DNA of 64,000 nt, taken from the NCBI RefSeq assembly GCF_055900595.2, contig NZ_CM148325.1; one strand, given 5' to 3'. The position numbers and the translations under genes are program-made. A model generated the notes under the pieces. That model did no database searches. It worked only from the letters and a program-made list of their open reading frames with translations, and was not told the origin of the DNA. The number at the start of each line of letters is the position of its first letter. Position 1 is the stretch's first letter. Positions 49,546 through 52,430 of the stretch are shown here, piece by piece.

Positions 49546-49941
<396 letters not shown>

Positions 49942-50146
49942 TCAAAATGTGTGATGGAAATCTCATAATTTTGTCACTTTTTGTCAACGAATCTTTTTTG
50001 TGAGAAATCGCAGGAAGAGGTGTTTTTTTACTTGAGGAATATCTCAAAGCGAGCCATATTTGATGAGATCGATAGTGACTAAATCGCTTCAGTTTCACAA
50101 CTAACAGAATAAAAAAACGGCAGCTCAAGGCTGTAATGCCAGTCAG

Positions 50147-50858
50147 TTAAGCAACTGACTGGCTCTTTTTCGGGGCTGTGGGGTATTTCCAGGGCCTCTC
50201 CTTTACCACTCTCGGGAAGGCCCTTTCCCTTCTTGTCGGTAATTTCACTGGTTGTCCCATACTTGCAAGATCGCGCATCAGCTCCGGTATACGTCCCGGT
50301 GAAGCGCATGGCGTCCGTCATCGACGTCAGCAGATGGCTGGTCAGTTCCATCTGGCAGACCATTTTGACCTGCGGGTAGAGCGCCGGGTTCTCGGCATGT
50401 GTCTGGCGGGGGAAGGCTGCATCGTTCTCTGGTGTATCCGGTGTGCGCCAGAACACACCATCGATGGCCAGCAGGGTCAGGCCGCACCAGTGCGGATGCA
50501 GCGTGGCGTTATGCCAGAGCTGCGCTGTTTTCGTGAACACGCGTCGGACAGCCTCACTTCCCAGGCGCTGGCGGGCCTGAATAACGGCACTGGGGGCAAC
50601 GAAGGGGCGATTGCCTGGCAGCATGATGTCCAGGCGATTCACAATCTGGTGAAGAGGTTCTTTACGCTCAAGCGCCATGCCAACAATACACCAGACCATC
50701 ATTTCGAGGGGAAGACGGCGCTTGCGTAGCGTTACAGTACCTGATTCGGCAAGGCAACGAGAGATGAGTTCGGGGTCGAGGTAATCCCCCAGAAAAGTCA
50801 GTGGGTTACGCAGAGAATCGTAACGGGATACCAAATCAAGGGCCTGTCCAATGAGCAT
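50147..50858 (-). pseudogene. IS4 transposase (InsG-like) pseudogene, two internal deletions with frameshift
   Basis: N-terminal ~185 aa match recalled IS4 transposase, then a jump at a repeated HLLT motif; the IS4 C-terminus (PELMRDLASMGQPVKLPTRRERAFPRVVKERPWKYPTAPKKSQSVA*) is present in another frame ending inside the terminal IR. Confidence 0.7.
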
Positions 50859-50909
50859 AAATAAATATCCTCCGGCATAGCCGGAGGTTTTTCAAATGCG
50901 CCTGTAAGG

Positions 50910-51625
50910 CTCTGTTACCAGCCGCGCCCTAACAGGCGCATACGATCTGACATTTGCATTCAACTTCGTTACTTACGGCCCGTAAACGGGCTGCCCGGAT
51001 ATGGAATCGATAACTGCTCCCCCATTTTATCCTCTTCAAGCTGGTGCTTTATGTAGTCCTGTATCTTCGCCGTGTTCTTACCCACCGTATCGACATAGTA
51101 CCCTCGGCACCAGAACTCCCTGTTTCTGTATTTGAATTTCAAATCCCCAAACTGCTCGTAAAGCATCAGACTGCTTTTCCCTTTCAGATATCCCATAAAG
51201 CCGGATACGCTCATTTTGGGTGGGATTTCCACAAGCATATGGATATGATCTGCGCAGCACTCTGCTTCCAGAATCCGTACGCTTTTCCACTCACACAGCT
51301 TTCTCAAAATACTGCCTATCGCCCTACGCTTCTCTCCGTAAAACGCCAGTCTTCGGTATTTCGGCGCAAAAACTATGTGATATTTACAGTTCCAGCGGGT
51401 GTGCGCTAAGCTCTTTTCGTCCCCCATTGGGACCCCCTTTTGATTTCTTGTTTGACACTTGCAGTTGCCAGACCGCAAGGTGTTTTAACAAATCAAAAGG
51501 GGTTTTAATAACTGGCTCAAAGCTGAAAGCTTTCCGGAACCCCCAGCCTAGCTGGGGGTTTTCTGTGCACAAAAAAATCCGGAAACGAGTGAGCGTTTCC
51601 GGATTCTTACACAGCCACTGAATCG
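50910..51625 (-). mobile_element. IS200-like element nested in the IS4 5' region (approximate boundaries)
   Basis: Contains the Y1 transposase gene plus IS200-type hairpins (TCCGGAAACG..CGTTTCCGGA + T-run and CCCCAGC-CTAG-GCTGGGG) upstream of tnpA; ends estimated, not mapped. Confidence 0.5.
50969..51427 (-). CDS. tnpA: IS200/IS605-family Y1 (HUH) transposase TnpA
   Basis: ORF 50969..51478; start at MGDEKSLAHTRWNCKYHIVFAPKYRR gives 152 aa with HUH motif (ADHIHMLVEIPP) and catalytic Tyr region. Confidence 0.85.
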   Translation of the reverse strand: MGDEKSLAHTRWNCKYHIVFAPKYRRLAFYGEKRRAIGSILRKLCEWKSVRILEAECCADHIHMLVEIPPKMSVSGFMGYLKGKSSLMLYEQFGDLKFKYRNREFWCRGYYVDTVGKNTAKIQDYIKHQLEEDKMGEQLSIPYPGSPFTGRK

Positions 51626-51692
51626 GTCAACTGATCCTTAACTGATCGGCATTACAGCTCAAGGGCTGCCGTTTTTTTATTTCAATCTTCTG

Positions 51693-52430
51693 TTATGTAT
51701 TGCTGCTGTTAGCAGCGATAATCTTCGCTACCTTTTCAGCTTGCGCATTCATCTGCATCTGACGGTATGCATTTTCCATCAGCGGCAGCGCATCACGCGT
51801 AGCCTGGGTATCCGGATAGTCGCGCAACATGCCTTCTACGCGGTTAACGACAGCAACCCATGCACCACGTTCTGTATAATACTCGGCAACGGAGTATTCA
51901 TATTTCGCCAGACGATCTTTCAGGAATACCAGACGTTTGGTGGCATCGGTGGTGTACTGACTGTTCGGATAGCCGCGCACCAGTTTGGAAAAGTCACTAA
52001 ACGCAGCTCGTGCATGTTGAGGATCGCGATCGCTACGGTCAACGCCAAAGAACCCTTGCAGCGCACTGTCATCCAGCGCCATATTGGTCAGGCCACGCAT
52101 GTACATGACATAATCGATATTCGGATGGGTCGGGTTAAGGCGAATAAAACGATCGATGGCAGCCTGTGCTAACGGCAAATCGGCGTTTTTATAGTAGGCG
52201 TAGATGAGATCCAGCTGCACCTGCTGCGAATACGGACCAAACGGATAGCGATTATCTAACGCTTCCAGTTGCGTTATTGCCTGTCTCCAGTTACCGTCCT
52301 GCAGCTTTTGTTGTGCAGTCGCGTAAATTTCATTTGGCGGATTATCAGGTACTTCTTCCTTTGACCCCGAGCAACCCGCCAAAAACAGGCTTAGTGTGGC
52401 GGCTGCCACCAGATATTTCATGCGCGTCAT
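51693..52430 (-). CDS. bamD: Outer membrane protein assembly factor BamD (YfiO)
   Basis: 245-aa TPR lipoprotein with lipobox LAGC. Confidence 0.9.

What the first reader, a model, noticed from the sequence alone, without database searches (positions are those of the whole stretch)
50121..51668. Deleted IS4 carrying a nested IS200-like element, inserted in the loop of the raiA/bamD palindromic terminator
The flanks reconstruct an almost perfect palindrome, AAAAAAACGGCAGC-TCAAGG-GCTGCCGTTTTTTT, split by the element, with the loop-proximal 13-14 bp duplicated as direct repeats (CAGCTCAAGGCTG / CAGCTCAAGGGCTG) as expected for an IS4 target duplication. The IS4 transposase reading frame shows two internal deletions, one at a repeated HLLT motif, and an intact IS200-type tnpA sits in the IS4 5' region. 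The insertion separates bamD, an essential gene, from half of its presumed terminator and places IS hairpins and outward-reading sequence next to raiA.
Basis: partly seen in the sequence, partly recalled or inferred. Interest (0 to 1): 0.5.

Follow-up and report, generated by a model that had tools for sequence, protein, structure and literature searches.

The report
Decayed IS4 with nested IS200
This is a dead, twice-deleted copy of insertion sequence IS4 sitting in the loop of the bamD terminator of E. coli, a site that IS4 occupies in about 7% of complete E. coli genomes. An intact IS200 later landed inside it, so the finding is real and well read but ordinary.

Summary
Window 50134-51654 is an IS4 element in sense on the minus strand, like raiA and bamD. 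It is bounded by IS4 inverted repeats and by a 13/14-bp target duplication that splits a 17-bp perfect palindrome, the bamD terminator.

The IS4 part is an 809-bp relic. It lacks 336 bp (between 14-bp repeats, the HLLT codons) and 281 bp (between GCGCTTC repeats), so the second Asp and the Glu/YREK catalytic region are gone.

A 712-bp IS200 with an intact 152-aa TnpA sits between the T7 run that follows the IS4 5' hairpin and the IS4 ATG.

Among 5,426 complete E. coli genomes:
- 5,007 have the empty palindrome.
- 336 carry IS4 at this exact site in this orientation, and 70 in the opposite orientation.
- 31 carry the 336-bp deletion and 18 carry both deletions.
- About 8 also carry the IS200.

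An 809-bp relic without IS200 exists in the same flank allele, so IS200 most likely came last. Both placements fit the elements' habits: IS4 goes into AAA..hairpin..TTT palindromes, and IS200 goes just 3' of terminator T-runs.

The IS4 5' hairpin plus U7 probably replaces the split terminator. Nothing new in kind; low interest.

The parts
49546..49887 (-). raiA (context). It is intact, and the 233-bp upstream region between the duplication and the raiA ATG is untouched.
   Evidence: ORF list. RefSeq annotation of a near-identical locus gives WP_000178456.1.
50108..50133 (.). raiA-side arm of the split bamD terminator palindrome. It includes the left 13-bp target duplication CAGCTCAAGGCTG (50121-50133).
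   Evidence: inverted pair I2, 17 nt, 100%.
50134..50858 (-). IS4 relic, 3' portion (IS4 nt 85-1426 minus 336 and 281 bp). It carries the 3' inverted repeat at 50134-50151 and a frameshifted transposase pseudogene at 50147-50858.
   Evidence: Alignment to intact IS4. NCBIfam NF033592 scores 120.8 bits over residues 25-180 only. PGAP calls it 'IS4 family transposase, frameshifted'.
50301..50307 (-). Junction of the 281-bp deletion: the single remaining copy of GCGCTTC (IS4 nt 972/1253). The deletion causes a frameshift and removes the YREK/Glu region.
50325..50338 (-). Junction of the 336-bp in-frame deletion: the single remaining copy of GCCATCTGCTGACG (IS4 nt 605/941, HLLT codons). The deletion removes the second catalytic Asp region (DKGY).
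50859..51570 (-). IS200 (712-bp variant), nested between the IS4 T7 run and the IS4 ATG. It has no target duplication.
   Evidence: It is 100% identical over all 712 bp to other copies in the related genome Z0117EC0005 and many others.
50969..51427 (-). IS200 tnpA, intact 152-aa Y1 (HUH) transposase.
   Evidence: NCBIfam NF033573 scores 144.4 bits against a cutoff of 55. It is annotated as WP_000502112.1.
51437..51560 (-). IS200 left end, comprising the tnpA 5'UTR / art200 (STnc490) locus and the left-end hairpin terminator (51538-51560).
   Evidence: Rfam RF01405 scores 146.4 bits. Hairpin fold is -18.7 kcal/mol. Terminator function is taken from PMC4513863.
51571..51654 (-). IS4 5' end (84 bp). 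It holds the 5' inverted repeat (51637-51654), a promoter-like site (51630-51603), and a hairpin (51577-51604) followed by a T7 run (51571-51577).
   Evidence: -22.4 kcal/mol, z -5.8; inverted pair I5.
51655..51681 (.). Right 14-bp target duplication CAGCTCAAGGGCTG (51655-51668) and the bamD-side arm of the palindrome.
51693..52430 (-). bamD (context). It is intact, and its stop codon lies 25 nt upstream of the duplication.
   Evidence: WP_000197686.1.

Best explanation
The element is an immobile fossil of one old IS4 insertion into the loop of the intrinsic terminator that follows bamD. That palindrome (AAACGG-N13/14-CCGTTT) is a natural IS4 hotspot.

The copy then decayed in place:
1. A 336-bp slippage deletion occurred between 14-bp repeats.
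2. A 281-bp deletion occurred between GCGCTTC repeats.
3. Last, an active IS200 inserted just 3' of the T-run that follows the hairpin in the IS4 5' end. This is the kind of site IS200 uses elsewhere.

What is shown:
- The anatomy of the element.
- The existence of each intermediate form at the same site.
- The population counts.
- The target contexts of IS4 and IS200.

What is inferred:
- The order of events.
- That the relic cannot move. It lacks two of the three catalytic regions, and the closest genome holds no other IS4 end.
- That bamD transcription now stops at the IS4 5' hairpin/U7 and the IS200 left-end terminator, leaving raiA on its own promoter.
For: Anatomy.

Same-site series, all in the same orientation:
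- Intact 1,426-bp IS4 (AF39).
- 1,089-bp form with only the 336-bp deletion (Z1323HEC0423, 382634_2f).
- 809-bp form with both deletions and no IS200 (EC42405, with the window's own flank allele, and 2013C-4282).
- 1,521-bp form with IS200 (7 genomes at 100% identity).

All deleted forms share IS4 variant bases 68C, 89T (His2Leu), 102C, 109T and 1310-11CA.

Counts:
- Both junctions present in 336 genomes.
- Opposite orientation in 70 genomes.
- Empty site in 5,007 genomes.
- 336-bp deletion junction in 31 genomes, one copy each.
- Both deletions in 18 genomes.
- IS4/IS200 junction in about 11 genomes.

The IS200 is 100% identical to other copies, with 17 places in the related genome. Five of five of those copies examined, including the one nested here, have their left end directly after a hairpin plus T-run.

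Other IS4 targets seen have the same arms: the adhE terminator, the IS200 left-end hairpin and fiu.

There is no second IS4 end in Z0117EC0005 (places_in_record = 1).

Substitute terminators: and PMC4513863.
Against: - The order 'IS200 last' assumes no precise excision, yet IS200/IS605 elements can excise precisely. The IS200-free 809-bp forms could in principle be revertants.
- The same 281-bp deletion occurs in a different IS4 relic, in the adhE terminator, in about 1,000 genomes. It may therefore not have arisen in situ.
- Variant bases are shared in a reticulate way among the relics, so recombination between strains or copies has blurred the lineage.
- No transcript data were available. 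The statements about termination are predictions.
Confidence: 0.88

Rival explanations
1. The deleted IS4 already carrying IS200 arrived as one unit. It would be a non-autonomous composite mobilised in trans by an intact IS4 through its two good inverted repeats.
For: Both IS4 inverted repeats are intact. Full-length IS4 carrying IS200 at the same internal position exists at two other loci with their own target duplications: fiu, and inside another IS200 near glcA.
Against: The same 809-bp relic without IS200 sits at the same site in the same flank allele. The deletion junctions occur once per genome and only at this locus. The IS200 nested at fiu and glcA is a different variant (IS200C, about 3-4% divergent) with different T-run junctions, which points to independent insertions. 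The closest genome has no other IS4.
Confidence: 0.03
2. The 281-bp deletion did not arise in this copy. It was copied in by ectopic gene conversion from the IS4 relic in the adhE terminator. Alternatively, both relics descend from a circulating 281-bp-deleted IS4 derivative.
For: The identical deletion (IS4 nt 980-1260) is in a 1,145-bp relic between adhE and tdk in about 1,029 genomes, including Nissle 1917. Relics at both loci share rare IS4 variant bases.
Against: Forms with only the 336-bp deletion exist at the bamD site, so a founder carrying the 281-bp deletion would need later repair. Strain 2013C-4282, which has both deletions, shows only one match and so carries no adhE relic. The repeat is an 11-of-12 match (GCGCTTC[C/A]CCGG), which makes recurrent slippage plausible. 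The junction base also differs between Nissle and the others.
Confidence: 0.25
3. The relic is retained because it has been co-opted. For example, its hairpins or the IS200 RNAs might tune bamD termination or raiA expression.
For: The relic has persisted long enough to collect about 12 substitutions and two deletions. IS200 5'UTR-derived RNAs have regulatory roles in Salmonella (title and abstract of PMC5435999, seen). The IS4 5' hairpin can stand in for the terminator.
Against: 92% of genomes lack any insertion here. IS4 is found in both orientations. The relic shows progressive loss of sequence with no conserved core beyond the ends. IS200 is present in only about 8 genomes.
Confidence: 0.04

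Closest known systems
IS4 of Escherichia coli (IS4 family, IS4 subgroup; the K-12 insG element)
   Same: 18-bp terminal inverted repeats TAATGCC.... The 809 retained bp are about 98.4% identical to an intact 1,426-bp IS4. The target is a palindrome with conserved arms, and the target duplication is long. PMC2266710 notes striking arm specificity in the IS4 subgroup.
   Different: It lacks 617 bp, including the second Asp and the Glu/YREK region, and is frameshifted. It carries a foreign IS between its 5' hairpin and its ATG. The two duplication copies differ by one G.
IS200 (IS200/IS605 family; Salmonella/E. coli IS200, IS200C, Yersinia IS1541)
   Same: About 710 bp with no inverted repeats and no duplication. 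It has the left-end hairpin terminator, the STnc490/art200 locus and a 152-aa Y1 transposase. It sits immediately downstream of a terminator-like hairpin and T-run (PMC4513863). The bioRxiv preprint 10.1101/2025.07.22.666184 reports terminators over-represented just upstream of IS200/IS605 elements.
   Different: It is 712 bp rather than the 707 bp quoted for Salmonella, and about 3-4% divergent from IS200C. Here the 'terminator' it landed behind belongs to another IS.
IS4 relic in the adhE terminator (adhE-tdk intergenic region; from memory this is the K-12 insZ pseudogene region)
   Same: It is the same IS4 subtype (68C, 89T, 102C, 109T) with the identical 281-bp deletion. It is also inserted in the loop of a terminator with AAACGG...CCGTTT arms.
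   Different: It is at a different locus, has a 12-bp duplication, and has neither the 336-bp deletion nor an IS200. It is present in about 1,000 genomes.
IS elements that target palindromes (REP-targeting ISs)
   Same: Insertion is into a structured, palindromic extragenic sequence (PMC1525189, listed).
   Different: The target here is a unique gene terminator rather than a repeated REP family.

Membership tests
IS4 (element and family) | Terminal inverted repeats of IS4 (18 bp, TAATGCC[G/A][A/G]TCAGTTAAG) at both ends | tested here: met
   50134-50151 and 51637-51654. They are identical to the ends of intact IS4 copies in five other loci.
IS4 (element and family) | Single ORF encoding a DDE transposase with the Y(2)R(3)E(6)K motif (definition in PMC2266710) | tested here: not met
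   Only the N-terminal 180 residues align (NCBIfam NF033592, profile positions 3-154 of 332). The DKGY and YSHRWEIELGYREIK regions fall inside the two deletions. It is therefore a pseudogene relic of IS4, not a functional member.
IS4 (element and family) | Nucleotide identity to reference IS4 over the retained sequence | tested here: met
   13 differences in 809 aligned bp against the intact IS4 of strain AF39.
IS4 (element and family) | Target duplication of about one helical turn (11-13 bp for IS4, from memory) flanking the ends | tested here: met
   13 bp on the left and 14 bp on the right here. Relatives show 13/13 and 14/14 at this site, 12 bp at fiu and adhE, and 11 bp in IS200.
IS200 (IS200/IS605 family) | Y1 HUH transposase TnpA of about 150 aa | tested here: met
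   NF033573 equivalog scores 144.4 bits against a cutoff of 55. The motif HIH, within ADHIHMLVE, is readable in the ORF.
IS200 (IS200/IS605 family) | No terminal inverted repeats and no target duplication; subterminal hairpins; a left-end terminator hairpin; the art200/STnc490 locus | tested here: met
   The IS4 sequence is uninterrupted across the insertion and no bases are duplicated, with a few bases of ambiguity in the T-run. Rfam RF01405 scores 146.4 bits. Hairpins are shown.
IS200 (IS200/IS605 family) | Transposition activity of this copy | not testable with these tools
   Only indirect evidence: 100% identity to many other copies at different loci.
Rho-independent (intrinsic) terminator of bamD | GC-rich hairpin followed by a U-run directly downstream of the gene | tested here: met
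   The rejoined site folds at -23.4 kcal/mol (z -8.2), and the common allele at -17.7 kcal/mol. It lies 11-12 nt after the bamD stop codon.
Rho-independent (intrinsic) terminator of bamD | Demonstrated termination of transcription in vivo | not testable with these tools
   No transcript data were available.

The most novel reading that the evidence does not exclude
IS4 and IS200 each carry the other's preferred landing pad. IS4 inserts into the loop of the IS200 left-end terminator hairpin, a junction present in 321 genomes. IS200 inserts behind the hairpin and T-run of the IS4 5' end, in at least three independent contexts. The two elements would thus repeatedly trap and inactivate or insulate one another.

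In addition, IS4 seems to cut at a fixed distance from the two target arms (AAACGG / CCGTTT). The duplication length (11, 12, 13 or 14 bp) then follows the spacing of the arms rather than a fixed stagger. Neither point was found stated in the papers searched.
Probability: 0.3. Interest if true: 0.35.

Novelty: already known. Interest (0 to 1): 0.15.

Why it matters
It matters little for biology at large. It is a clean worked example of how an insertion sequence dies in place, with every intermediate still present in sequenced strains. It also shows that the bamD terminator is a recurrent IS4 target, occupied in 406 of 5,426 genomes and in both orientations.

Practical value:
- The site and its decay states could serve as lineage markers.
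- The nested IS200 is a live recombination substrate. In strain E200086 it mediated a roughly 137-kb inversion reaching to rpoS.
- Annotators should read 'IS4 family transposase, frameshifted' here as a fixed relic, not as an active element next to an essential gene.

Tried and rejected
- Literature support for the IS4 target consensus that I recall as AAA-N20-TTT (Mayaux et al. 1984, from memory) could not be retrieved. Only the general statement on arm specificity in PMC2266710 was found. The arms were therefore read directly from six insertion sites.
- The consensus terminator scan did not report the IS4 5' hairpin or the rejoined bamD terminator. I think this is because the upstream A-run pairs with the T-run and consumes the tail. 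Folding was used instead.
- Mobilisation of the composite as a unit was considered and rejected (see rivals).
- A second IS4 or IS200 copy inside the 64-kb window was looked for and not found.
- The exact IS200 left boundary cannot be fixed to the base because every copy abuts a T-run. The 712-bp span is the part identical between copies.
- The origin of the 13/14 mismatch (G-run slippage versus recombination of the bamD-side flank) was not resolved. The window's bamD-side flank allele was seen only in 10 genomes that carry the relic; the closest empty site is 96.2% identical.
- ISfinder itself could not be queried.

Full report
**Context**

The window is Escherichia coli chromosome. The local gene order is pheA-pheL-raiA-[element]-bamD-rluD, with ssrA and an rRNA operon also in the window. 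raiA (49546-49887) and bamD (51693-52430) are both on the minus strand. Transcription therefore runs bamD, then the element, then raiA. A 6-kb stretch around the element differs at one base (50040) from strain Z0117EC0005.

**Check of the observation**

The element 50134-51654 (1,521 bp) is bounded by the IS4 inverted repeats; the repeat finder reports 22 nt at 91%. Immediately outside lie CAGCTCAAGGCTG (50121-50133) and CAGCTCAAGGGCTG (51655-51668). Outside those lie two arms of 17 nt that are 100% complementary (50108-50124 and 51665-51681).

Rejoining the flanks gives AAAAAAACGGCAGC-TCAAGG-GCTGCCGTTTTTTT. This folds at -23.4 kcal/mol, with z = -8.2 against shuffles. The empty site is real:
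- 5,007 of 5,426 complete E. coli genomes have it unoccupied.
- The common allele is ...CAGCTCAAGGCTGCCGTTTTGTG.

**Anatomy**

I aligned the element to intact 1,426-bp IS4 copies. The IS4 part is 809 bp.
- It lacks 336 bp between two copies of GCCATCTGCTGACG (IS4 nt 605 and 941). These are the two His-Leu-Leu-Thr codon runs. The deletion is in frame, and its junction is at window 50325-50338.
- It lacks 281 bp between two copies of GCGCTTC (nt 972 and 1253). This deletion shifts the frame, and its junction is at window 50301-50307.

Together the deletions remove the DKGY and YSHRWEIELGYREIK regions, that is, the second Asp and the Glu/YREK part of the catalytic site. NCBIfam recognises only the N-terminal 180 residues. 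The retained sequence differs from an intact IS4 at 13 positions, including His2Leu.

A 712-bp IS200 (50859-51570) lies between IS4 nt 84 and the ATG at nt 85. Nt 84 is the end of a T7 run that follows a -22.4 kcal/mol hairpin. The IS200 is in the same orientation as the IS4. It has:
- an intact 152-aa Y1 transposase (NF033573, 144 bits);
- the left-end hairpin;
- the STnc490/art200 locus (Rfam, 146 bits).

**Population survey**

- The exact 1,521-bp structure at this locus is in 7 genomes. An eighth, E200086, has it split by an inversion.
- Both IS4-flank junctions are present in 336 genomes.
- The opposite orientation at the same site is in 70 genomes, including IAI39 and CE10.
- Duplications are 13/13, 14/14 or 13/14, according to the GG or GGG loop allele.
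- The intact copy examined (AF39) is of a different IS4 subtype from the relics.

The site has therefore been hit several times and is a hotspot.

**Decay series**

Several forms exist at this one site, in this orientation:

| Form | Length | Example strains |
|---|---|---|
| Intact IS4 | 1,426 bp | AF39 |
| 336-bp deletion plus a 1-bp deletion | 1,089 bp | Z1323HEC0423, 382634_2f (E2348/69 also has this deletion junction) |
| Both deletions, no IS200 | 809 bp | EC42405, 2013C-4282 |
| Both deletions plus IS200 | 1,521 bp | the window's lineage |

The 336-bp junction occurs in 31 genomes and the double junction in 18. Each occurs once per genome. All deleted forms share the variant bases 68C, 89T, 102C, 109T and 1310-11CA. 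EC42405 has the window's own unusual bamD-side flank allele but no IS200.

The simplest history is one IS4 insertion, then the 336-bp deletion, then the 281-bp deletion, then IS200. The IS200 is 100% identical to other copies in the same lineage, with 17 places in Z0117EC0005. That fits a recent arrival.

**Why these sites**

The IS4 insertion sites read here all have A-run/T-run arms around a palindrome:
- AAACGG|N13-14|CCGTTT (bamD terminator);
- AAACGG|N12|CCGTTT (adhE terminator);
- AAAACCCC|N11|GGGGTT (IS200 left-end hairpin);
- AAACGCA|N12|ACGTTT (inside fiu).

This agrees with the arm specificity noted for the IS4 subgroup in PMC2266710.

Four further copies of this IS200 variant, and the IS200C copy downstream of hisIE, have their left end directly after a hairpin and T-run (amtB-tesB, hcxB, pckA-envZ, yqjG, hisIE). 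The IS4 5' hairpin plus T7 is one more such site. A recent preprint reports terminator-like sequences strongly over-represented just upstream of IS200/IS605 elements (10.1101/2025.07.22.666184).

IS200 nested at the same IS4 position occurs in two other contexts, with a different IS200 variant and different T-run junctions.

**Consequences (inferred)**

The relic cannot transpose on its own, and the closest genome has no other IS4 end.

bamD has lost the downstream half of its terminator. The IS4 hairpin and U7 lie 51-84 nt past the insertion point, and the IS200 left-end bidirectional terminator follows (PMC4513863).

The raiA upstream region (233 bp) is intact. Both proteins are identical to those of empty-site strains.

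**Verdict**

The feature is a known kind of thing. It is already annotated in RefSeq as an IS4 pseudogene plus IS200 tnpA, and it lies at a commonly occupied hotspot. Interest is low. The side observations on mutual targeting of IS4 and IS200 and on the shared 281-bp deletion are the only mildly new points.

Noticed in passing
window 50108-50133 and 51655-51681; loci L002, L008-L011: The bamD terminator loop is a recurrent IS4 hotspot. 336 genomes carry IS4 in the window's orientation, 70 in the opposite orientation, and 5,007 are empty. Duplications of 13 and 14 bp follow the GG/GGG loop allele.
   Followed up: yes
L017 1561-2705 (Nissle 1917) and L018 (H22), adhE-tdk intergenic region: A second IS4 relic (1,145 bp) sits in the adhE terminator loop in about 1,000 genomes. 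It carries exactly the same 281-bp deletion and the same rare IS4 variant bases as the bamD relic. Recurrent slippage, gene conversion and a mobilised deletion derivative were not distinguished.
   Followed up: partly
L017 about 1548-1560 versus L018 about 1548-1560: In Nissle 1917 the left copy of the 12-bp duplication reads CCCCAGAAGGGG. This is the reverse complement of the right copy CCCCTTCTGGGG, which strain H22 has on both sides. It looks like a template-switch inversion within the quasi-palindrome.
   Followed up: no
L005, L006, L007 (IS4 ends flanked by CAGCTAGGCTG): IS4 is inserted in the loop of the IS200 left-end terminator hairpin with an 11-bp duplication. This is seen at three different IS200 copies, and the junction is present in 321 genomes, including CFT073. 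Together with IS200 landing behind the IS4 5' hairpin, each element targets the other.
   Followed up: partly
L013-L016 (IS200 copies near tesB/amtB, hcxB, envZ/pckA, yqjG): Every copy of this 712-bp IS200 variant examined has its left end directly 3' of a terminator hairpin and T-run.
   Followed up: partly
L019 and L020 (strain E200086, NZ_CM128605.1 about 1,144,881-1,146,294 and about 1,282,366-1,283,171): The element is split by a roughly 137-kb inversion. One side reads rpoS-IS200-IS4 relic-raiA; the other reads bamD-IS4 5' end-IS200-marR-like gene. This implies recombination between the nested IS200 and an inverted IS200 downstream of rpoS.
   Followed up: yes
L008 1-2000 (strain EC42405, upstream of raiA): In this strain raiA is flanked by an ATP-dependent nuclease gene and a truncated DNA methyltransferase gene where pheL-pheA lie in the other strains. 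This suggests an island or rearrangement on that side of raiA.
   Followed up: no
window 51630-51603 (minus strand): A promoter-like site, TTGACC-16 nt-AAGAAT with an extended TG, lies inside the IS4 5' end upstream of the hairpin. It may be the IS4 transposase promoter, now cut off from its ORF by IS200.
   Followed up: no
window 51665-51700 versus L003/L009: The bamD-side flank (GCCGTTTTTTTATTTCAATCTTC) is a divergent allele seen only in the 10 genomes that carry this relic; the closest empty site is 96.2% identical. Variant bases inside the relic are shared in a mosaic pattern between strains. This points to recombination across the locus.
   Followed up: partly
window 50800-50892 (+): A weak Rfam match (29.9 bits against a gathering score of 315) to Yersinia sRNA Ysr202 overlaps the IS200 right end. 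It probably reflects IS1541/IS200 sequence within that family's seed and not a gene.
   Followed up: no
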